The notes below the pieces were generated by a model that did no database searches, was not told the origin of the DNA, and saw nothing but the letters and a program-made list of their open reading frames with translations. DNA of 63,985 nucleotides, filler included, from Conidiobolus incongruus B7586 (taxonomy: Eukaryota): assembly GCA_000697335.1 (NCBI GenBank). It is 10 parts of 10 records of this genome, joined end to end, with 100 filler letters (N's around TTAATTAATTAA, not from the genome) between each part and the next. Parts side by side here need not be neighbours in the genome. Positions count along the whole stretch, not along the records: positions 10,707 to 28,144 come from JNEM01006797.1; 9 more parts are not named here. The stretch is one strand, 5' to 3'. The position numbers were made by a program, and so were the translations under genes. Positions 469-60,125 of the stretch are shown piece after piece (position 1 is the stretch's first letter; each line of letters begins with the position of its first letter).

Positions 469-2953
469 TATTAATTAAAGTAATATTTATATTATTTAAA
501 TTTAATATTATTTTATGTAATATATTCTATATAATAAATATTTTTATTAAAATATTATTATTTTTAATTATAAATTATTAAAATTAAATTTCAAAATTGA
601 ATTTGTTAATTTGAAATAATTATAAAAATCATTATTAATCTTGAATTCATTTATTTTTCAAATTTTAATTGATTTTTTTAATGTAAATATATTAGTAATG
701 TGATGAAATTGTCAAAGTAATAATATATTTCTGTTAAAAAAACTGCATGCAAAAATTATATTTAACAATATTTTGAAAAATTGCCAAGTAAATTAAATGT
801 AATATCAATAGAATTAAGTTTATATACTGATTAAAATCTTAAGTAATAACCATATTATGCGACAAATCAGATATTTTCTTCAGAATGTATTTTTTATTTC
901 TAATATCAATAGTAACGTTCATGCAATTTCGAATCCATATAATCATAATACGTTTCATATAGTTCACGAAAGTAGATCAAAATTCGATAATTTTATCAAA
1001 TGCAAAAAGAATAAATTTAACAATATTATTGATTGAAAATGGCTTTAATTTATAAATTATGAAGATTTATTGATATAGAAGTATTATTTGAAGATGATAA
1101 ATATAATTGGAAAATTCTATTAAAATTTTAAATATATTGAATTTTTAAACACTAATTGATTTTAATGAATTGAGAATAAAGATATTTTTAAATTTTATTC
1201 ATTAAATTGAAATTAGAATTTTTGCAAAATAATTGAATATATGAATGAAGAGTTTAAAATGCAATTATTTGATTTTAATGATATACTCATATGTTTACAA
1301 TTATTAAAATGGCAACAATTCCTCAAACTATATTCATATCAATTTGACTTTATTGACATTTAATATCCTAGCATTTAATGGAAAAAGCGTACTTTATTTC
1401 TGCAATGCATAAGAAAGTATGAAGATGATTATTGTAATTAAATGTGATTTCATATACTCGAAAATATTTTCAATTTGATTTCAAATGAAATTATTTGATC
1501 AAATTTGTTAATTTCATTATTATTTTTAATTTCTGATATAAATGGCTTAAAAATTGGTTTAATATAGCAATTATTCCTTTTAAAATTACTTAATAATTAA
1601 TTTGAAAAAAACTGGTTATATCCATTTAAACTATCTAAACTATCGCTTTGAATTATTTGGTTAATAAACAAATAAATTGTTATTCCTACTTTAAATTAAA
1701 TTTTGATTATTTTGGTTATTAAATCATTCAACCAACACCAATCATTCGACCAGCTTAATCAGCAATTAATAATTCAATTCAATTGGTGATCCAAAAATTT
1801 TGAACTACATTGCCTAATGGCAATTAGACAACATCTTTAATGGAATACTTTATATCAACAAATACAATTTTAATGGTTAATGTAGTACTTAATTATTTAA
1901 AAATATTGCCAATTTCCAAAATTTCATCCAATCAAATTGTATACACTGAAATATGGTTTAACTTCAGATATACTATTAATTTCATAAACAGTTTATATTA
2001 ATTTCTTTGCTGAATCTTTTTACTCTAATCATATTATGTTTAAATTTAACTAAATGATGAATATAAAAATATTATCACTATTGTTCAGACTTGAATAACT
2101 ATATATAACGATCATTATTCACAATGATTGGGAAAATTTGAACTAATAGATTAGAAGCATAATTCTAAGTTTAATACCATTCAATTTTTTTCAATTGTTT
2201 TTATAAGCATATTTGTACATTGATAAATATGTAAAATAGACTTAATGAAGAAACTAATATTGTTATCAAAAAACGTGACCAATTTAATCAATATGATGGC
2301 TGAATCGAACACAATTAACAGCGGCGTCAATTGCATAATAAATAGGAGAGGTGGATTTAGATTTGATACATTTCGGTCAGTTACAAACGTTCACTAATTT
2401 CCAATTTCAATACAAATGTGGAGACTTCCAGAATGTTATCGGAATAGAGACAACTTGGCATATTTCATTATAAATTTCAATATTATACTATAATATTAAA
2501 AATAATAATTATAGAGTTAGAGAGAGGTTCGGATGATTATTTACAATTAAATCATCACACTAAAGGAATATTCACACTATACAATATATGAAAAAATTTC
2601 CGATTTATCAACTATAATAATCCATAATATCAACAATGCAATTGTGTAGTGGGATGAGTTAATTGAGTTAATCTTAAAAATTGATCGATTGAGGGTCAAT
2701 TGGGGTTTAGTCAATCTTATTGGTTAATGTCTCAAATTTAAATTCATCGATACTTGAGTATAAATACACCGCCTTGAGTTCATTACAGATATTTCCTCAT
2801 CTCGAGTTTGGGATTAGCGTCGTTAATTAATTATTTTCTTATTATATTATACACCTGATATTTTTATATTGTGTTCTTAATATTTGGGATAGGATTGGGT
2901 AACATCATATTATAATTATTTCTGGTTTATTTTAATCAACAATCAATATCAAA

Positions 2954-3649
2954 ATGAAGGTATCAACAGCTATAAATGTTGCATTGCTGATGCTGTTAAA
3001 TTGGAATGGCGTCAATGCCCAAAATGATAACAATAATAATAATAATAATAATAATAGACCAACTCGTATACCAGAAATCAACAACCCTCAACCTACTAGA
3101 CCACCGGCAATGCCAGTCACAGGGAATATCCCTCCACCCCCACCTCCTCCATCAGATTCACAGCAACGCCCATCATCACCTACTCAGGACAATCGTCCCT
3201 CCTCGCCACAAAACCAGGATAATCCAAGGCCAACACCTGAGCCATCCAGACAGGATTCATCACCCCCAAGGAACCAACAGAGGCCAAGACCCACACAATC
3301 TAACCCAGCACCCCAAAACCAACCCCAAAATGCAGCATCATCCCAAAACCAGAATCAACCGAACACCCAATCACAAGATCAAAGTCAAAATGACGATGCT
3401 CCACAAGATTTCTTTAGTGCGCCCATGGCACCGCCACCTCCCAAGTCCACGGAAGGAGACACCAATAAGACCGCAATCATTTCAGCGAGTGTAGCAGGCT
3501 CTCTACTCGTAGTAAGTTTAGCAGCTTTTCTCATCTACAGGCGTCACAAGCGCCAAGCCATGTGGAAAGACGAGGAAGCTGTAAAAAATGGTGGAGGTGA
3601 TATTTTCAAGAGCACTTTGGAGAGGTATCACAAGAATTCAGGACTCTAA
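2954..3649 (+). CDS. Single-pass type I membrane protein with signal peptide and Pro/Gln/Asn/Ser-rich ectodomain (mucin/cell-surface-sensor-like architecture)
   Basis: Intronless 231-aa ORF in a GC-richer island. Signal peptide MKVSTAINVALLMLLNWNGVNA|Q, low-complexity ectodomain, TM helix AIISASVAGSLLVVSLAAFLIY, stop-transfer RRHKR, short cytoplasmic tail. Confidence 0.88.
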   Translation: MKVSTAINVALLMLLNWNGVNAQNDNNNNNNNNNRPTRIPEINNPQPTRPPAMPVTGNIPPPPPPPSDSQQRPSSPTQDNRPSSPQNQDNPRPTPEPSRQDSSPPRNQQRPRPTQSNPAPQNQPQNAASSQNQNQPNTQSQDQSQNDDAPQDFFSAPMAPPPPKSTEGDTNKTAIISASVAGSLLVVSLAAFLIYRRHKRQAMWKDEEAVKNGGGDIFKSTLERYHKNSGL

Positions 3650-17275: not shown

Positions 17276-18029
17276 TTAATGTTTAGCGTGCTTATCTTTA
17301 TAAGCTTCCACTCGTTTAAGATAATCCTCCAAAGCAGTTTGATATTGATCAGTGTAATTCTAATTATTAGCAAATTAGTATAAGGATGGTGAATAAATGG
17401 GTTAAGAGGAATTTGTATACCTGTTTTTCTGAATCAGACAATTCTTTCCAAAGTTTTGCTAAGAATTGAGCCTGCTCAGTTGCATTCTGAGGAATGCTAT
17501 GAGGATTCCTATCTCTGTAATCCTTACAGAATAAGAGATAGGACGAAAGGGGGCGCTTTGGGAAGTTTGGATCACGCTGGGCTTTATGTAACCTCTTCAA
17601 TGCTTTCTCCTTTTTGAGTTGTTTAGTCTCTTTCTTCTTTTGGATAAAATCCTTTAAACCTTCAGGTCCCAATTTGGCTTTAAAAGCTTCCATATCTTGA
17701 TTATACTTGGCGATTTCTTTTTGGTATTTAGAGACGTATGCCTGCTTTTTCTTTGGGTCTAAAGTTTGCCACTTGTCGCCCAAATCTTTCATAACTTCTT
17801 TCATGGTTGAGGCACCACCTTCAGAATCTTTCAAATTATCTTTAACGAAATTAGCAAATGAAGTAGCAGGCCTTTTGGGAGGTTCTAAACAATATCTAAA
17901 TTAATTTATCATATTAACATTTATGAATTAATTACTTAAAGCATCGTGAATAATAGATAAATTAGAAAATGAACGACTTAAAAGAGCAATCGATTTAGTA
18001 GTCGTTCTAGTAGAAACTAATTTCAACAT
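17276..18029 (-). CDS. Two-HMG-box protein with mitochondrial-type presequence (Abf2/TFAM-like nucleoid protein), ~213 aa; exons 18029-17936, 17884-17421, 17359-17276
   Basis: GT-AG splicing gives an open frame: MLKLVSTRTTTKSIALLSRSFSNLS (basic/hydroxylated, no acidic residues), box 1 PPKRPATSFANFVKD...LGDKWQTLDPKKKQAY, box 2 DPNFPKRPLSSYLLFCKD...LAKLWKELSDSEKQNY. Confidence 0.88.
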
Positions 18030-19014: not shown

Positions 19015-19519
19015 TTAACGTGACTTCGATTGGTGATCATGGAGTAATTTGTCATATTTCTAAAATGAATAGATTAGTAAATATACCTTGATTAAATGAT
19101 AAATCTTTACCTTTCTTTCTTCATCATTCAAATCATTCCAAGCCTTATGAAAATATTGCATCTCTTCTTCAGGTTCTGTAGGCAATTTATTATTGGATTT
19201 CTGCTTCAACTCCCGACAGAATAGTTCGAATGGCGTCTGAGGAGTAAACTTGCTAGATCCATACTCACTCTTATTGAATCTTTCTTCAGAATATGGAAAA
19301 CTTGCACCATCTTCTGATCTCTCTTCAAATCGGGTTTTGATCGACTTTTTAATGGTTTTTGGACCTGAATCCTCTATCATACATGTTATTTAAAGAATTG
19401 TTGATTATGAATTATAATTTGTTACCTGATAACTGTAGTAAATAAGTCATTTGAGAAAATGGTCGCTTGTTCAAATATTGATACAATCTAATATTACTAA
19501 TACACTTTTTGAGCAACAT
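19015..19519 (-). CDS. Divergent single-HMG-box protein with presequence-like N-terminus, ~133 aa; exons 19519-19426, 19373-19111, 19059-19015
   Basis: Spliced frame is open: MLLKKCISNIRLYQYLNKRPFSQ...TPQTPFELFCRELKQK...FHKAWNDLNDEERKKYDKL. Intron positions match the neighbouring HMG gene. Confidence 0.78.
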
Positions 19520-20810: not shown

Positions 20811-23800
20811 ATGGTCATTTACTCGGGTCCTAACTCCGACTATAATAAGAGAAGGCCTTATTATAATAGCAACTATTATTATAGCCCACACCCAAGTTAC
20901 CAAAGCTATTCAGGGTCACAGACTTATCCCCAACCGAATGACCCATATTCTCAGACTAATTACTACCAACAACAACAATACTATCCGACTTTAAACTACT
21001 ATCAACCATATTACTATCCCATAAGTAAATATTCAAATAATTTCAACAATACCATAATAATATCGTGACTTGAATACTGATCAAATTTGTTTGATAGATT
21101 ACAGCGGGTATACTGGACACTATAACCAGTCTTCGGTATGCCAGTCAACACAATACTCCATCACGTCAGGGGCTGTGAATGTAAGGTTTAATTTAGTACT
21201 ATTTAGCATTTATTATAACTAAAATTTATTACAGTTAACCAATCGCACTCTTAACAATTCCATCCAAACCCCCCACACCCCACAATCCACCAATCAGAGC
21301 CAAGAAACTATTTCACCCCCCAAGGATTCATCTCTCAATCTCTCGCAAAAAGGCTCCCTGAGCAATCATTTTCCCATTAAGAAGCCGAATGGATGGTCAG
21401 GCAAACTGTTTCAGCCTAAGAAGCTCGATAAATTCAAGTTTCAACTTGGACGTAATGTGTTCCAGTCACCTAGCCCTAATTCCCCCACCTTCATTGCACA
21501 GTCCAATCCAATTGAGGTTATTCCAGATCAATTGTCTGAAACTCAAACTCAAAATTTTGATCAAACAACAGTTGCTGAGCTTGCCACAGGAACTCAATCT
21601 CAAAATGAAAATGTTGCACAACCAGAAGAGGATAATCTAACTGAGCTAACGAATACTGAAAATCCTGATCAAGGAGCTAACGCTGAACAAATTGAAGTCA
21701 TTGACCAATCCAATGAATCTCTCCCCGAAGTGAACCCATCCGAAATTGTCGAAGATCCGCAAAGCTCCGAGGGTGAAGAAGTGCATGAAGTCATCCAGTA
21801 TGTCAAAGACTTCTCTCATCAGTCCTTAATACTCAATCAATATTTGACTCGTCATCAACTTAAGGAGATTTCTAAAATCAATGCAGACATCGATAATTCA
21901 AAATCTGGCGAATCTGACGATCACAGTGTCAACTCGGACTTTGGACAATCGAAACTACGCTTTGGACCACTTTCCAAGCTCAAGCAATCATTTACACCAG
22001 GCAGAATGGTGTGGGTCACTTGGGGAAAAGTAGATGCATATCCTGCAAAAGTATTGAAAACTAAGGCAACGAGAGTATTAATCAGATATGAAGGGTGGGG
22101 TGAACACCACGACGAATGGATTGAGATGAATTCCAGTCGTATATTGCTTCAAAAACCAATTCATGTAGAGATGAAAAGCGCTGATTTGGATCAATCCTAT
22201 GAACCTCCAAAAATCAACGATCAGATCATGGTAAAAGATCGCACAGGAATTTGGTGTGAAGCAATCATTTCGTCTATCAAGCAGGACAAGGTCATGATTA
22301 CTTACCCCTCCCAGCCACGCACTCGAGGTGAATGGATTCCTCTCAATTCTGACAGAATACGCTCCATACACGATTTTGAGAACATTGATCAGTTGAAAGC
22401 TACAGAGCTTCCCCCCATTCCAACTAAACCCCTGAAAACTAAATCTACTAAAAAAAAGATCATCAAGTTCAATCAATTGAAAAAGGTCGAGAAGGCTTTG
22501 GAGCATTTGGAGTATATTTCTGACATACCCGTGGATATTGAAAATGACAATACACAAGAACCAACCGAAAGCAAATACTGGCATATTTATTGTAACATCT
22601 GCCACATTGTTCTCAAACAATATCGTTACTATTGTACACATTGTGAAACTCCCTCCGAAGACTCGAGTTTTGATCTCTGTATCTGGTGTTATCAAAATTC
22701 ATTCCCTAGAGATCATCCTCATCCACCTCAATCTTTCGCTGTGGACTGTCTAATTACTGAAGAAATCATCGATTCTTTCGCTCCTAATAAGGTAAAAGAT
22801 TCTCTGATTTTAGCTCCATTTGTAAAAGATACATTCTACAATGGTCCTAGTTTAGAAGCCAGCTTCTGTAATCCAATTTGTGCACTATGCCATGATATCA
22901 GTTGCAACGATATCACAGGACCCTTCATCAATGAAAAACCGTTCTTGTTCACATCTCTGTCAACTCGAGTGAATGGAGTGAAAGCTGCCCACAAGAAGAA
23001 TATCTTCTGGATGCATCAGAATTGCGCTATGGTATCTCCACAGGTCATTGTCTTCCATCTCAAGGATCCAGAAAAGGAAGTTTGGTACAATCTCGACAAA
23101 ACAGTATATCGTGCTAGCAAGATGAAATGCAGTAAATGTCGAATGATGGGAGCGACTGTTGGATGTTTCAATTCCAAATGCCCCAGAATCTACCACTTGA
23201 CATGCTGTGGCAAAAATCCCAAACTTTTCCTCCAGGGCGCTATCTTCTACTGTCCCAAGCACGAAGAGATCACTAATAAAACCCAGCATTACGAGGAGCA
23301 CTACCACTGCGACAACTGTAAGAAGAGCTTACCGTGCCCCAATCCCAGAGGCCCTTTCCCCGATCTTTCACCTGACGAGTGGTACACCTGTCAAGCTTGC
23401 GTGGAAGAGAATTTTTTTTCGGGCTTTGACCTCTGTACTGAATGCTTTGTGCATAATTTCAAATCTATCAAGCATCATCACAGATCGAGTAGATTTATCA
23501 GAACCACCAAAAACCAATTAGAAGTTTTATTGGATGAACTGGCCAATAACAAGATAGCAAGTTTGAAGCATAAAAAGAATAAAGCCAAATCGGAATCCAA
23601 TGCTAGGACCAGACAGAGCGAGGAGCCCAACGATTCAAATAAAGAGGAGCAAGCACCACCTAAGAAGCGCAAAATCGTCAAAAAGATTATTCAATACCAG
23701 CCCAATGTCCATTGCTCGTACTGCTGGTCCACCACCTCGACCATCTGGCGTCGTGGATATATGGGCGTTCTATTATGCTCCACCTGTTTCATGAATACGT

Positions 23801-26413
23801 CCGCCGAAAACAATTCTACCGCCGTCAATCCCAACACTGAGGAAGACCCTGAAGAGATCATCATTGACGTAGTGAACGACTCGCCATCACCTCAAGAGAA
23901 ATTCGGGTACCACGGAGATTACGAAGACTACATCCACCAACCTTATCATACCCGCAACCTACCGCAATTGAGTGCCCTTGCAGCGGACATACCCAAACTG
24001 AATCACAATGCTTTGGTGAACCGAGCAATCCATCTCGAAACTTATGGTCCCACCATCTACCAAGCGTTCTCTTTAGATTTTAGGTCAACCTATTACGATA
24101 TTCCTGGATCAGCTCCCAGATGTAAGTATTTTTAATATTTTAAAAAATTTTTGATTAATTTTTGTTAGGGGCTTCTCACTCAGGATCGGATTATCACGGT
24201 AATTAGTCATACATTCTTATTTTATATTGATATTAATTAGAGTTTAGGCACTTGGTTACCACAAACTGTACGCAGGTAAATAATAATTGATTCATTATAT
24301 AATTTTACAATATTAAACAATTGATATAGAGCTATTACACGATACACCAAAGAGGGTGATATGGTCTTAAGTAATTTTTTGGGACGAGGTAACTTCAATA
24401 ATTTGGAATTTGTATATTGGAATTAATTGGAATTAGGTACGGATGCTATAGAGTGTTTTTTGCTAAAGAGAAGGTAATTTTATTGTATTAATTTGAGTTT
24501 TGTCTTATTAATAAGTTTTTAGGTGTATTGGTATCGATATTAACCCTGTAAAACATTTACATTCAATTAAATGATATAATTTCTAACAAATTCCATTAGG
24601 TAGCTGTTGCTCTATCCCAAAAGAACATCTCTTTTGCACTTCCGCCATCCCTGCTGGCGAATTCGGAATCTAAGTACCATCGCCCCACCATCATTCAAGC
24701 TGATGCTCGCAACATGTTCTCCATCCTGGCTAACGAAAGTGTGGCTCACGTCCTTTCACATCCTCCCTACAAGGATTGCGTCGAGTATTCCAACAATATC
24801 GACGGCGATCTTTCAAAGTTTGCTAACAATCAGGAATTTTGCAAGGAGATGCAGAAGGTGGTGAATGAAACTTGGAGGTATATATTACATTTATTACATA
24901 TATGTGTGGTGATTTATTAATGTTTTTTTTGTAGAGTATTGAAAATGGGAGGACGATGTACATTAGGAATAGGTGACAATCGCGATCAATGTTTCTACCA
25001 ACCTGTTGCATTTGAAGTCATCCAACTCTACATGAATACTGGTTTTCAAGTGGAAGAAATTGTAAATCAATTAAAACACTCCAATATCATGATTATTAAT
25101 TTTATGATAGATTGTGAAACGTCAACGGCAATGTCGAGCCTTCGGTCTCGGAACTTTTTTATGTGTTAAATATGATTTCTTAATGTTTACTCACGAATTT
25201 ATTATGACGGTTAGAAAGACTCCAATGACGAGATCCATGAGTAGAGCTATGAAAAAAAGTAATACTGTCATCAATAATGTAAGAATATGGCTAACTTTAT
25301 GATAGATTTCAAACCAGCCAAAGACATTTCTAGATGGAAACACATGGTAGGCTACCGCATCAAAGTTAGACAGATTCCAGACTGCCCTATCGAGCGCAAA
25401 TCCGTCATCATGGGCTCCGTATGGGTATTCCGTCCCAATCATAAGTATTCGTTCCCTGGCCTCTGTGTCTCCAGAATGGTAAACATTTTTCAAAATATTT
25501 TTCAAGTATTTAACAATTTTTAGGTGGAGAGATTTGGAAGAAATAATACGAATTGGGAAGAAGTGATATTAAGATTTAAAAAATCTAATGTAATTTTTAT
25601 TTTATATACATATAGTATTATTGTATTAATAGTATTTTAGACTAATGATGATAGCAATGTAGCAGAAGGTAAATTAACCATCAATTTTTGCAATGTTAGT
25701 TTCTAATTGGAATTTTTTAGATCCTACTATAATTGTACCTGATCCTGAGCCTATCGACTCTCATTATGAGAAAATGCGTCAAGTTAGAATTAAATCTAAC
25801 AAGAGAAAGTTGCTATCTTTGGTAATTTGCTCAATCATTATATAATTTTCATATGGTTTACATCTGAATAGGGACTAATCTCTGAATTGAGTGACGATCG
25901 CTCTGAAGACATAATCCATCACGACAAAATGATGAAAATGAAAGCGCTGCCCTCTGCCCCCATCTCCCTCATTGTCGTGCCTCACGTCCCCAACCACAAG
26001 CTCGATTGCGAAATTATTCCTTTTTACAGACGCGCCATCATCGAAATGACGCTGTACGCACTCCAAACTCTGCCACCCTCTGGAATGTTTATCGTTGGGG
26101 TCCAAGACTACCGCATGTCAGAAGGCACTCTCATTCCCTTGAGTATCCTGGTGTACCAGGATATCAGCGAAATCATCCGCAAGAGCGATCACATGAAACT
26201 GAAGGAATTGGTAGTGTGTGTTCCGCAAGGCTACAGTTGTGACCGGACGAAAGAGTATACAAAAATCCCTAAACAACCCTGCGTCGTTGGTGAAAAATTG
26301 CAAGATGTGAAGCATTTACCCATTGTTCACGTAAGTTGAATCATTTTTTATATAATTTTAGTTATTAATTTTTGATATAGGCTATCTATATGATCTTTAT
26401 GAAATTGAAATAA
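20811..26413 (+). CDS. Chromatin-reader-fused N6-adenine/N4-cytosine-type DNA methyltransferase, ~1591 aa, 17 exons: 20811-21024, 21098-21180, 21235-24121, 24169-24198, 24248-24275, 24330-24388, 24437-24473, 24523-24547, 24600-24877, 24935-25061, 25111-25258, 25306-25478, 25524-25589, 25641-25668, 25721-25821, 25872-26330, 26381-26413
   Basis: All 16 introns are GT-AG with consistent phases; total 4776 nt. Domains: chromo-barrel x2 (RYEGWGEHHDEWI; TYPSQPRTRGEWI), ZZ (CNIC...YYCTHC...FDLCIWC), extended PHD (CALC...HQNC...CSKC...GC...C...HLTC...CPKH), ZZ (CDNC...CQAC...FDLCTEC), NLS PPKKRK, GATA-type Cx2Cx17Cx2C, MTase (NFLGRGT, GIDINP, QADAR, SHPPY), then a degenerate second MTase copy. Confidence 0.9.
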
Positions 26414-35765: not shown

Positions 35766-36470
35766 TTAATAATAATACGGACTACTGAATCCTGCACTCG
35801 TGGGTGTATGGATAGGGTAGGAGGGGAATTGATACGTTGATACATTGTTATACAATTGAGGGCTGCTAGGCGTCGAGTAGGTGGAACATTGAGGACTACT
35901 GGGAGTAGAAATGGGAAGAACTTTTGATACGATTTGAACACTCAATACAAGATTGCCTGGCAAATTATATTGGTAATGATGTGTTGGCATGGGACCATTG
36001 GTAGATCGTGTAAAATGATGCAAACATGGAACTCCTTGAACTGCCAAGGTGGTGGGAGCCATCATTTTGTTTGAAATAGGAGTATTAGCGGGAGTGGGAA
36101 GAGGTTGTGATTGAGGTAAATATTGAACCAAATTCAATTGAGAGTTTGCAAGATGATAATGTAAAGCAGCTTGTGATATTTGCCCTGTGGGATGATGAAT
36201 ATCAAATTGTATTGTTAAAATGTTTGGATTGATCCACTCAGGAATCCCTGTTATAATAGCTTGTTGAGGTTCATTTAAATTTTGAATCAAAGAAATGCTT
36301 ATTGAGCATAATGGATGATCATAGTAAAAAGGAGAGTTTTCACTCAATGATCTTGACTTTGATGAAGATGATGATGAAGACAATAAGTTTAGACTAGAAT
36401 TCAAACTAGATAAACTAGAGTCTATGTTTGAAGCATCACTATATCTACTTATCGTTATAGAATCAGCCAT
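35766..36470 (-). CDS. Hypothetical Ser/Pro/Thr-rich protein, 234 aa, no family recognised
   Basis: Intronless ORF in a GC-richer island, start context aaaATGG; poly-Ser N-terminus, STPSSPQ twice near the C-terminus. Confidence 0.75.
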   Translation of the reverse strand: MADSITISRYSDASNIDSSLSSLNSSLNLLSSSSSSSKSRSLSENSPFYYDHPLCSISISLIQNLNEPQQAIITGIPEWINPNILTIQFDIHHPTGQISQAALHYHLANSQLNLVQYLPQSQPLPTPANTPISNKMMAPTTLAVQGVPCLHHFTRSTNGPMPTHHYQYNLPGNLVLSVQIVSKVLPISTPSSPQCSTYSTPSSPQLYNNVSTYQFPSYPIHTPTSAGFSSPYYY

Positions 36471-38075
36471 TTTGAAAATATAATATAATACAAATTTTTA
36501 AAACCCAAGACTAGAAATAATAAAAGTTTAAATACTCGAAAGTATTAATTTTTACCCAGATACTTGTCGTGTAGGGAGAGAGAGATATATATTTATATAT
36601 ATAATCTAATTGAGGAATCCTTAGGGATGGTCCTAGTGTGCAGGAATAGGGAGAGTGAATAAAATATTGCAATGTCATGATGAGAGGCAAGGTGTATTTA
36701 TAGTGGAGGAGGATGATTAAACTTCAAAAACAAAGGGGATGGGTGGAAATAAGTGGATATAATGGGAAATAGGTAGAAGTTGATCCATTGGACGAATAAC
36801 GGAGGACAAAATTCAAACTGAAGATCAATAACCATTAGTTCATTTCAGGAGGAGGGAAAGTTTGATTATGTTTAAGTAAATTGGGTTAAATCACTGTTTA
36901 ATAATTATATCCGATCTATTTAATTCTATCCACCCTCCCACCCACCAGATCTGCCCATTCATGTGAATTAAAATGAATCCTCACTCGGCTTCCCAATTCG
37001 GCTATTCTTACTAACGATTCATTTGTCCTAAGTTAGAAATTTGCTTCAATCCATTCAGAGTGGATGAGTGTTGGTATATAAGACAAATATGGAAATTATT
37101 TGTTTTTCTTTGTGATCCTCCTAAACTAATTTCATTCAAGCATCTTGGATTTTACCAAGGAAATACTCCTCGGACTCTGATTGGTTCTCCTCTGAAACTC
37201 AATTGTAGTGTTAATGTGGCAATTAGTCCATGGTACTTGGTGTGGGTTGCTTATTAGGCAGGAGACGCAAAATCGAATGGTTTCACTAGATGAAACATTG
37301 TTTAATCGGAACATTGAGCGAATCAACTCTTGCCAATCCACAGCCTTTCTCTCATTCTGAGGTAATATCATATTATCAAATCTCTTCCACTAAAATATTA
37401 TTGATTGATTGATTGATTGTTATCTATAAATAGAAGTAGCCAATAATGGGTTGGATTTATATCAATCATCCTCAGAGGAAATGTAAAATTTCCATTTTGC
37501 TACATTCGCCAACGATTGGCAATTGAACAAATTCAAAGGTTTTTTTTTTGATAATTAGAATAATTTAATTTCACATTAAAATCCAATTACTCAGTTCTTC
37601 ACTCATTATAGAAATTCCATTGTTTCATATGTTATGATTGGTTATTGATAATATTCAATATACAAGTAAGTGGGAGAGGAATAACAATTAAACCTGTGGT
37701 CAATATATAAACAATTCATAAACATTAAGCCATTTTATTACATTTAGTTAAATATAAGTTTGACGTAAAATATATAATACATAATATATAATATCTAAGT
37801 GATTTTAGGAGAAATACACTAATTATGAATCATTTTAATACACTATTTGTAATAATGAAACTTGAAAAAACAAAGCTATAAACCTACAGAATGAATTCCA
37901 ATGATACTAATGTAATTATTCCCCCTTTCCTATAACTTCATCAAACTCCCCTACCAACTAGTAACAACTTTAATAGAGGTAAATTAATTGAATAAAATCT
38001 CAAGTTTCGAGTCATTATTAATTAATTAATTATTATTGTTATTATTGAAAATAGAATATTATTTTAGAACATCTT

Positions 38076-56461: not shown

Positions 56462-57872
56462 ATGGAGTCAACAATGAACTCAGTAAAATTGGCAGCTCCT
56501 ACTGGTAATTCGCATTAATTTGATTAATGAAAAATGAAATTAACCATTGTTGTTTAGTGCCTCTTGTCGGTACAATTATCACTATCTTGAGTGCTGCTAC
56601 AGCATTTATATTAATTTTGTTGCGATTATTAGAGCATATTAGTTATTATTCAATGGTAATTGATTACTTTTATTGGTGTATCAACACATTACTTATTTAC
56701 TTTAAATATAGTCAAATCAACAAAAATGCCAATTAAGAATTCTATTCCTACTAATAGGACTCAATATTCTACCGATTTTAGACTATCATTGGATGTTTTT
56801 CCATAGTATTTACCAATTTATACAGACTTTGATCGAGTGTTCAATTCTTGTGCATTTGATCAATTTTCTCATTCAAATTATCAAGGATCAACAACCGAAG
56901 GACTCGCCAAATCTGACCAACTACCTGGACCACGAGTATATTAATCCTCCAATATGGGCACAGATGGCATCGTGGTTCCAGTACAAGAAGCCCATAAGAA
57001 TGCCATTCCCATTTCGAAATGTGAGGCTGCGACCGGGAAAGCAGCGTTTCTTTTTTTGGACACTCACCTTCATCTTTCAGTATCCTATACTCCGCAGCAT
57101 ACTTAGCTGTATACAACTGATTCTCAATTTGGCACAGCCTAACTCTTATAAATTTCAATTTGTTATCCAGAACTCGGCACCTTTCGCATTCTACTGTGTC
57201 GAACTCGCCAGTCTGATCGTGTGTTTCTACTTCAGTAGTCTTTTCTTCAAAGTGATCCGCTCGGACCTCATGTTCCCACTGGTGGGGGCGAGTATCAATC
57301 CTAGTACTCAGTTCTGCGCCACGTTCACTTACCTATTCATCGTCTCTGGACAAACCATCATGATCACAATTATCAATCAATTCCGTCCAATCGAAGTGAT
57401 GCCGTTATTGGATCACACATCCGACGCTATCGTCCTATGTGCTCTATTGGAAAGTGTAGAAATCGCCACATTCACAGTCATTACAGTAATCACTCTTCGC
57501 GTAATCGACAAAGGTATACCACCCTACTACCGCGGCGGCTTCCAATACCCACCTCGATACCTTGCACTTTTAGATACGTTTAATATTTGGAAAGACATTA
57601 AGGAAATTTTTAGGATTTCTAAACAATTCTTTAAATTCCTTTGGTATAATCGTAATTTTGAAAAATTGAAAATTTCTGATAAGTTTAATATTTCTAAATC
57701 AGAATCTTGTGAGAGATTGAGATACACAAATGATTGTAATGATTTTAAGACTGCTTCAAATATAATTGGGACTTTGGCAAGACCGAAGTCAGTGAAATTT
57801 CCTGGAAGGTCTAAACCTACATTTAAGGAGAATGATGATGACAAGGTGGGTACAATTGAATTGATAGAGTGA
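56462..57872 (+). CDS. Multi-pass membrane protein, OST-alpha/TMEM184 (organic solute transporter)-like, ~433 aa; exons 56462-56504, 56558-56655, 56712-57872
   Basis: GT-AG splicing joins the two ORF-track pieces in frame. About 7 hydrophobic segments; LLEHISYYSMSNQQKCQLRILFL resembles the family HLxxYxxPxxQRxIxRIL motif; also FQYPILR, LLESVE and ALLDTFNIWKDIKE. Confidence 0.72.
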
Positions 57873-59581: not shown

Positions 59582-60125
59582 TTAGTGTAGAAATTAAGTA
59601 ATGGCACAATTTTAAAATTAAAATTAAACAAATAAATTAATAAATAATATATAAAATTTAATGAATAATATAAAATTAATAGCCTCCTTTATTATTAATA
59701 ACTCTTTTCCATACCTTTGGTAAGCTTCTAATACCTAAAAAACAGTTCTTTTTATTAAGGACTGAAATTTGATGTTTCACAAACCAATTTAATTTGTTTG
59801 CAGGAATTTTTTTTCCTGTAAGCTGTTTTTTTAATTGTCTAAAATAATTATAATCACATGGATTATAATCAGGTGAATATACTAGATGTGGTAACTCCCT
59901 CCAATTTTTTTTATATAAAAAATCTTTTACAGCTTTAGCTTTATATATTTTGCAATTATCATGCAAAATAATAAGTGTCTTTAATTTATATTGAGAACAC
60001 CATTTAAAAATTGTTTTATTTAAAAAAGTAATATATAACTTACTATTAATTAATTTTCCTTGAGGTATTAAATAAAAAGACCATATACTATTATAATCCA
60101 TTACAACAATTAACATTCACTTATA
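59582..60125 (-). mobile_element. 3' half of mariner subfamily B copy with an open 146-aa catalytic C-terminus, interrupted by Tc1
   Basis: ORF 59676-60116 contains ILHDNCK...YSPDYNPCD...VWKRVINNKGGY; terminus TA|ttagtgtagaaattaagtaatggcacaatttt. Confidence 0.92.

What the first reader, a model, noticed from the sequence alone, without database searches (positions are those of the whole stretch)
20811..26413. Bacterial-type amino-DNA-methyltransferase fused to six chromatin/DNA-reader modules
Seen: hand-splicing joins at least six ORF-track fragments into one ~1591-aa protein. It has a Tyr/Gln-rich N-terminus, two chromo-barrel/Tudor domains (~21991-22362), ZZ (~22588-22725), extended PHD (~22879-23263), ZZ (~23305-23480), an NLS and a GATA-type finger (~23713-23787). 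It then reads WASHSGSDYHGTWLPQTVRRAITRYTKEGDMVLSNFLGRGTDAIECFLLKRRCIGIDINP...QADAR...SHPPY (HPPY at 24759-24770). Established: FxGxG plus (D/N/S/H)PPY marks amino-methyltransferases (6mA/4mC), unrelated to 5mC DNMTs and distinct from MT-A70/METTL proteins. From memory, the segment resembles a prokaryotic THPPY methylase family, and similar fusions have been described in early-diverging fungi (Mucorales MetB-type), so the family itself is probably not new. Inference: a single-chain, histone-mark- and sequence-guided DNA methylation writer; its substrate and targets in this lineage are unknown.
Basis: partly seen in the sequence, partly recalled or inferred. Interest (0 to 1): 0.88.

Follow-up and report, generated by a model that had tools for sequence, protein, structure and literature searches.

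The report
Fungal chromatin-guided DNA adenine methyltransferase
This 17-exon gene belongs to an already described but apparently never bench-tested family of early-branching fungi that joins chromatin-reader-type domains to a bacterial-type methyltransferase; it likely marks adenines in DNA, and it likely took its paired active-plus-dead enzyme core ready-made from bacteria.

Summary
The gene is real. A script splice gives the same 16 introns and 1591 aa, and 11 of the 14 junctions tested lie in conserved, ungapped columns of 113 homologues. Readers and methyltransferase are one chain across Mucoro-, Zoopago- and Chytridiomycota. It is not MetB-type (PF02384). It is a member of Group-1 Clade 4 N6A-MTases (Iyer et al. 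2016), about 47-50% identical over about 550 aa to three proteins listed there. I did not find two points in print. First, prokaryotes already carry the active+inactive pair, and the two inactive halves are homologous (HHalign 99%, E 4e-18). Second, the halves are predicted to pack as a pseudo-twofold dimer (0.82 versus best control 0.01). Bacterial relatives sit in DpnII-type restriction loci, which points to DNA adenine. Against a bulk role: Mucor lusitanicus has this gene, yet MetB and Mta1 explain most of its 6mA. Against DNA: the top fold hits are tRNA m2G enzymes. The substrate is untested. New member of a known kind.

The parts
20811..26413 (+). Whole gene, 17 exons, 1591 aa. Exons: 20811-21024, 21098-21180, 21235-24121, 24169-24198, 24248-24275, 24330-24388, 24437-24473, 24523-24547, 24600-24877, 24935-25061, 25111-25258, 25306-25478, 25524-25589, 25641-25668, 25721-25821, 25872-26330, 26381-26413
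   Evidence: splice; junction check; collinear with P0010 at 42% over 1215 aa
20811..21990 (+). Tyr/Gln-rich then acidic low-complexity N-terminus (exons 1-3); the least certain part of the model
   Evidence: the Massospora homologue P0120 also starts Tyr/Pro-rich; junctions 1-2 untested
21994..22155 (+). Chromo-barrel/MBT-like domain 1, with a cage-like Y..W pattern
   Evidence: Pfam MBT E 4e-5; L3MBTL/Eaf3/PHF20L1 hits; iterated HMM E 4e-14
22210..22368 (+). Chromo-barrel 2, aromatic pattern degenerate
22585..22737 (+). ZZ-type zinc finger 1 (label from Cys/His pattern and Iyer 2016)
   Evidence: conserved in 124 of 124 long homologues; no Pfam ZZ hit
22870..23265 (+). Extended PHD (zf-HC5HC2H)
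   Evidence: Pfam E 8e-10; KMT2D E 4e-8; 124 of 124
23299..23487 (+). ZZ-type zinc finger 2
   Evidence: 122 of 124; its HMM cross-hits ZZ1, so the count is an upper bound
23656..23685 (+). Basic NLS-like patch
   Evidence: sequence; function inferred
23713..23793 (+). GATA-type zinc finger
   Evidence: GATA-1 E 2e-4; 120 of 124
24122..24168 (+). Intron 3; it holds the stop at 24133-24135 and its removal joins readers to the MTase
   Evidence: junction ungapped in 110 of 113 homologues
24070..25221 (+). MTase 1, unpermuted amino-MTase: FLGRG 24376-24438 (split by intron 6), HPPY 24759-24770
   Evidence: HPPY in 112 and FLGRG in 105 of 113 homologues; PADLOC Type II MTase E 2e-36 for homologue P0126; 42% identity to bacterial P0163
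25392..26410 (+). MTase 2, degenerate: no FxGxG or xPP[YFW]; carries a helical insert (Iyer's KRI, about 25759-25883)

Best explanation
The gene encodes one 1591-aa chain in which chromatin-reader-type domains precede an intact HPPY methyltransferase and a dead copy of it; the two are predicted to pack as a built-in dimer that likely methylates adenine N6 in DNA at sparse, likely chromatin-selected sites. Shown: gene structure, domain order, near-invariant SAM-binding and catalytic motifs, membership of Iyer's Clade 4, and homology of both halves to prokaryotic tandem MTases. Predicted: pseudo-twofold packing of the halves. Inferred: (1) chromo-barrel 1, ZZ, ePHD and GATA dock the enzyme on nucleosomes and DNA; (2) the dead half holds DNA or scaffolds while the live half flips and methylates the base, as in beta-class dimers and METTL3-14 or MTA1-9; (3) the mark is rare, conditional or on opened DNA, because known writers account for most fungal 6mA.
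For: Family match: text; same motifs and architecture; 47-50% identity to three listed proteins. DNA context: of the best 80 of 583 GTDB loci, 69 have a Dam/D12 MTase and 56 a DpnII nuclease within 4 kb. The best PADLOC model is a Type II DNA MTase, matched over 20-248 of 249 positions. The best PDB sequence hit of the bacterial relative is a beta-class MTase (2ZIE) in two permuted pieces. Tree: 31 eukaryotic rows form one clade (99) inside the prokaryotic HPPY family, far from five THUMP/UPF0020 RNA MTases (BLAST E at best 0.009 against 1e-38 to 1e-67). Tandem origin: (68 of 68 and 114 of 114 reciprocal preferences). Packing, on homologue P0126: score 0.82, best control 0.01, runs agree in at least 49% of contacts, partner pLDDT at least 68; the mark was reached by 51 of 78 solved and 2 of 108 mismatched microbial pairs and by 39 of 65 and 2 of 126 eukaryotic pairs; equivalent elements touch each other. 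In L132, L157 and genome G037 the tandem form is the only MTase seen beside a DpnII-family gene.
Against: No activity data exist here, and I found none in print. Mucor lusitanicus carries the gene (P0114), yet metB deletion removes 70-75% of 6mA and its motif, and mta1 or p1 deletion removes all symmetric sites. So this enzyme makes no detectable symmetric GATC/ApT mark there. The top fold matches are tRNA m2G enzymes, Trm11/TrmN/Trm14, at Z 16-17.5. The closest tandem prokaryotic forms mostly lack Dam (3 of 80 loci) and DpnII (5 by a strict HMM, 10 by clustering), so their target is unproven. The AU test does not reject grouping the fungi with the single-domain forms (p 0.57). The complex test used two halves of one chain and may pass by likeness to solved MTase dimers.
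Confidence: 0.55

Rival explanations
1. It methylates RNA (nascent-RNA adenine, or guanine N2 as in Trm11/Trm14) at chromatin.
For: The top structural matches are Trm11, TrmN and Trm14 (Z 17.5, rmsd 2.7, 178 aligned). Iyer notes 4-5 recruitments of such enzymes to RNA. Known writers explain most Mucor 6mA.
Against: No THUMP domain was hit. Sequence similarity to THUMP enzymes is negligible (E 0.009 or worse) against about 40% identity to restriction-locus MTases. The fold ranking is order-dependent, so permuted DNA MTases cannot align fully (inference), and an unrelated SAM MTase ties at Z 17.5.
Confidence: 0.15
2. It writes N4-methylcytosine in DNA, like rotifer N4CMT, which would be invisible to 6mA-centred studies.
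For: Same PF01555 family as N4CMT, a chromodomain-fused 4mC writer. In the two Mucorales papers 4mC occurred only in a reference or not at all.
Against: N4C enzymes typically have Ser first in motif IV; here it is His in 112 of 113. The partner nucleases are DpnII-family, a system defined by adenine methylation of GATC.
Confidence: 0.13
3. It is a major writer of genome-wide double-strand 6mA, for example at GATC.
For: Tandem relatives stand alone beside DpnII-family nucleases in a few loci. The gene is kept across the early-diverging lineages sampled.
Against: The Mucor knockouts, and robust 6mA only in AMT1-encoding species.
Confidence: 0.07
4. It is a chromatin scaffold or protein methyltransferase with no nucleic-acid product.
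For: The wider clade includes HemK-type protein MTases, and the protein has many protein-binding modules.
Against: 107 of 244 MTase1 columns are at least 95% conserved, including surface motifs shared with the bacterial DNA enzymes.
Confidence: 0.07
5. Readers and MTase are separate genes here.
For: An in-frame stop at 24133-24135 if intron 3 is kept; no transcript evidence.
Against: Canonical 47-nt intron; junction ungapped in 110 of 113 homologues; 114 stored proteins carry the ePHD core motif and HPPY in one chain.
Confidence: 0.03

Closest known systems
Group-1 Clade 4 N6A-MTases of basal fungi (Iyer, Zhang, Aravind 2016, PMC4738411)
   Same: Chromo(n)+ZZ+PHD+PHD+ZZ+GATA+MTase+inactive MTase(KRI), the same motifs, 47-50% identity to listed members, and bacterial kin in DpnII loci
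   Different: Two chromo-barrels (homologues have 0-4, most often 4). No DNMT3-like finger or AT-hook seen. Iyer's bacterial list (part read, longest 364 aa) shows single-domain forms; here tandem prokaryotic forms match both halves.
Second MTase of DpnII-type R-M loci (DpnA role)
   Same: Single-domain HPPY relatives occupy that slot next to Dam and DpnII
   Different: PDB entries labelled DpnA (5HEK/5HFJ) match only weakly (E 1e-5). ssDNA specificity is shown for pneumococcal DpnA, not for the HPPY family.
MetB of Mucorales (Lax 2024, PMC11258239)
   Same: Bacteria-derived amino-MTase in early-diverging fungi
   Different: MetB is PF02384, MmeI-like with a TRD; a different family. Mucor lusitanicus has MetB and also a Clade 4 gene.
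N4CMT of bdelloid rotifers (PMC8885841)
   Same: PF01555 MTase of bacterial origin fused to a chromodomain, histone-read/DNA-write design
   Different: Permuted beta type, writes 4mC, one chromodomain; 8S9N matches only a short piece
Beta-class dimers, METTL3-METTL14 and MTA1-MTA9 (PMC7544214)
   Same: Active plus inactive partner with division of labour (predicted here)
   Different: Here both halves are in one chain and unpermuted; not MT-A70
Trm11/Trm14/TrmN tRNA m2G MTases
   Same: Closest solved folds (Z 16-17.5)
   Different: No THUMP hit, about 20% identity, separate branch in the tree

Membership tests
Iyer Group-1 Clade 4 | Unpermuted amino-MTase with [DNSH]PP[YFW] at strand 4 | tested here: met
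   FLGRG at aa 1097 precedes HPPY at aa 1175; model of homologue
Iyer Group-1 Clade 4 | Sequence belongs with the listed members | tested here: met
   49%, 50% and 47% over about 550 aa to P0052, P0039 and P0115; P0052 and P0039 match by gene name, P0115 by species, name and length; eukaryote clade 99
Iyer Group-1 Clade 4 | Fusion to chromo, ZZ, PHD and GATA | tested here: met
   ZZ by pattern only
Iyer Group-1 Clade 4 | Second C-terminal inactive MTase | tested here: met
   MTase fold (nearly all of the 50 top rows are MTases, Z 6.3-8.2); catalytic motifs in 0 of 114; HHalign to MTase1 itself is weak (E 0.03)
Iyer Group-1 Clade 4 | KRI domain inserted in MTase 2 | tested here: inconclusive
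   A conserved helical insert is at that place; no KRI profile hit in the Pfam scans
Iyer Group-1 Clade 4 | Prokaryotic relatives in DpnII R-M loci | tested here: met
   69 and 56 of 80 loci; much rarer for tandem forms
Iyer Group-1 Clade 4 | Host is a basal fungus | tested here: inconclusive
   Source unknown. The protein groups with zygomycete/glomeromycete rows (95) and is sister to Massospora only at 80, unresolved
Iyer Group-1 Clade 4 | 6mA activity on (ss)DNA (predicted, not shown, by the authors) | not testable with these tools
   needs an assay
MetB | PF02384 N6_Mtase domain | tested here: not met
   No PF02384 hit at E 0.05 or better in four homologues, PF01555 instead
Trm11/Trm14 | THUMP domain plus grouping with THUMP MTases | tested here: not met
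   No THUMP hit while control L085 hits it; NCBIfam TIGR01177 scores 44 against a cut-off of 317 for P0163; tree; the AU test of this grouping did not finish

The most novel reading that the evidence does not exclude
Early-diverging fungi carry a third, still undetected nucleic-acid methylation system. An ancestor captured a whole bacterial active+dead MTase pseudo-dimer, wired it to histone and DNA readers, and kept it across these lineages to write a mark that current methylomes miss: 4mC, or 6mA on transiently opened DNA.
Probability: 0.35. Interest if true: 0.75.

Novelty: new member of a known kind. Interest (0 to 1): 0.4.

Why it matters
The architecture is in print since 2016, so the gene alone is no surprise. 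What remains open is worthwhile. The enzyme is highly conserved across early-diverging fungi, yet it was not among the candidates deleted in the Mucor study, and known writers already explain most 6mA there. Mucor lusitanicus has the gene and knockout tools, so the question is directly testable. The prokaryotic tandem proteins (about 500 aa) offer a small soluble stand-in for finding the substrate. They would also be a single-chain parallel to METTL3-14-type active/inactive pairs.

Tried and rejected
No whole genome was held, so copy number and the presence of MetB or AMT1 in this organism were not checked. RNA runs: no RNA holder was listed, which is no evidence either way. MetB link rejected. 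HHalign of MTase1 against MTase2 is weak (E 0.03). Foldseek gave no hit at E 0.001 or better for MTase2. The tree cannot name the donor: nests the fungi among tandem forms (97), but the AU test on 40 of the 102 rows does not reject fungi plus single-domain forms, and the 102-row tests did not finish. Both trees were quick LG+G4 with a long outgroup. I looked for a characterised bacterial member: the C. thermocellum methylome does not assign Cthe_1513, and M. hominis DAM1/2 are alpha-class. The partner genes of tandem MTases stayed unnamed. GATC is not depleted in the window (111 observed against 93 expected), which is uninformative. In the genome check, 3 of 5 tandem-bearing genomes have D12-class matches over the cut-off elsewhere, and the genomes may be incomplete, so 'sole MTase' is only suggestive.
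Full report
OBSERVATION. The window is AT-rich eukaryotic DNA. The ends were given and the score used AT content, so this is not fully independent. The independent check is homology. Of 14 junctions in the C-terminal part, 11 are ungapped in 100-113 of 113 homologues, three lie in variable linkers, and junctions 1-2 were not tested. The stop at 24133-24135 is inside intron 3. The model is collinear with Geosiphon P0010 at 42% over 1215 aa.

FAMILY. A search with the MTase region of P0003 gave 155 long homologues, 120 of them listed, from Glomero-, Mortierello-, Mucoro-, Kickxello- and Entomophthoromycotina and Basidiobolus. Iyer, Zhang and Aravind 2016 (PMC4738411; I read the abstract, section 3, part 1 of section 5, passages, and supplement parts 13-14 of 68 plus term searches; cells there were cut) describe exactly this as Group-1 Clade 4. 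Their features are basal fungi only, an unpermuted MTase, fusion to chromo, ZZ, PHD and GATA, a second inactive MTase with a KRI insert, and bacterial kin in DpnII systems. The window protein is 47-50% identical over about 550 aa to three proteins in their table. MetB is a different family, PF02384 (Lax 2024, passages and section 12); four homologues hit PF01555 and not PF02384. An earlier scan note on a Dimargaris copy reached the same family call; I had reached it before seeing that note.

ANATOMY. After a low-complexity N-terminus come two chromo-barrels, ZZ, extended PHD, ZZ, a basic patch and a GATA finger. These are conserved in 120-124 of 124 long homologues, which were selected for length over 1300 aa and HPPY. 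Only barrel 1 keeps a cage-like pattern; the cage reading is from recalled knowledge of royal domains. MTase 1 has HPPY in 112 and FLGRG in 105 of 113 homologues. MTase 2 has neither motif in any of 114 rows, but a homologue's model folds as a class I MTase (pLDDT 83; Z 6.3-8.2). Both folds and the complex job used homologues (P0126, P0191), not the window's own chain.

ORIGIN. The MTase 1 domain is 36-42% identical to its closer prokaryotic HPPY MTases. Single-domain forms sit beside Dam in 69 and DpnII in 56 of the best 80 of 583 GTDB loci. Many top prokaryotic hits are longer, about 460-550 aa, and their tails match fungal MTase 2: HHalign 99%, E 3.7e-18. The fungal MTase 2 profile prefers bacterial tails over bacterial MTase 1 in 68 of 68 proteins (68 of 71 could be split), and the reverse holds in 114 of 114. 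The pair was therefore most likely transferred whole (inference). I did not see tandem prokaryotic forms in the part of Iyer's supplement read or in a term search of it (12 of 13 and 6 of 6 places shown). The tree agrees but does not prove it (AU p 0.57).

CONTEXT OF TANDEM FORMS. In the best 80 of 578 metagenome loci, Dam is present in 3. The tandem gene is flanked, usually directly downstream, by one of several interchangeable genes: a 185-aa family in 28 loci, a ~400-aa family in 18 and a DpnII-family nuclease in 10. Among those 10, L132 and L157 have both flanks held and show no other MTase, L127 has Dam, and the rest are cut short. In G037 the only DpnII-family gene follows the tandem MTase. 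This hints at activity on double-stranded DNA and weakens a strict ssDNA reading, but the numbers are small.

PACKING. The two halves of P0126 scored 0.82 against a best control of 0.01. Runs agreed in at least 49% of contacts, with partner pLDDT at least 68. The mark was reached by 51 of 78 solved and 2 of 108 mismatched microbial pairs, and by 39 of 65 and 2 of 126 eukaryotic pairs. Equivalent elements touch: 377-388 with 680-690, 397-404 with 702-710, 426-428 with 743-748. That is a pseudo-twofold. It may reflect likeness to solved MTase dimers. Division of labour between subunits is established for beta-class MTases (PMC7544214, passages).

MECHANISM. Most likely the readers dock the chain on chromatin, the dead half helps hold DNA, and the live half methylates adenine N6 (0.55). 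Against a bulk role: Mucor lusitanicus has the gene (P0114), yet metB deletion removes 70-75% of 6mA and mta1 or p1 deletion removes all symmetric sites; robust 6mA tracks AMT1 (PMC12695648, passages). Against DNA: the best fold matches are tRNA m2G enzymes, although sequence, tree, lack of THUMP and PADLOC all favour DNA MTases. 4mC remains possible by analogy with N4CMT (PMC8885841, passages).

LITERATURE LIMITS. I found no bench test of Clade 4 in nine searches (five of them aimed at the fungal family) of an open-access library. Other papers seen as passages: PMC13297926, PMC6791906, PMC8298701, PMC12019607, PMC3812788, PMC10305163. Mondo 2017 was not read, and the Lax supplements were not opened; they may list this gene.

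VERDICT. A real gene and a new member of a described, untested family. The modest additions are the tandem prokaryotic ancestor and the predicted built-in dimer. Interest 0.4.

Noticed in passing
L119:4662-5867 and 17 other metagenome loci; L173:3059-4435: A ~400-450 aa gene follows tandem MTases in 18 of 80 loci. It has a helix-hairpin-helix glycosylase-like motif by eye (recalled pattern) and conserved cysteines, but no Pfam, PADLOC, PHROG or PDB hit. It could be an uncharacterised restriction partner.
   Followed up: partly
L148:6065-6619 and 27 other loci; L046:293-823; L174, L175: A ~185-aa unnamed family with an invariant RTPxHxH and QEKTN follows tandem MTases in 28 of 80 loci and also occurs in single-domain loci; no family hit.
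   Followed up: partly
P0181, P0134, P0138, P0148, P0289: Deep-branching eukaryotic homologues, including Paramicrosporidium, suggest that the family reaches further down the fungal tree than the 2016 list.
   Followed up: partly
window 17370-17900 (-) and 19063-19389 (-): An HMG-box gene (Pfam E 6e-19) upstream on the opposite strand; the second exon-like frame had no Pfam hit.
   Followed up: no
window 56712-57869 (+): Organic solute transporter OST-alpha family gene (E 5e-11).
   Followed up: no
window 59679-60116 (-): DDE_3 transposase fragment (E 6e-6).
   Followed up: no
window 2936-3649 (+): Pro/Gln/Asn-rich frame with a signal-like start and one transmembrane-like stretch; no Pfam hit.
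   Followed up: no
window 35766-36497 (-): Ser/Pro-rich 243-aa frame with no Pfam hit.
   Followed up: no
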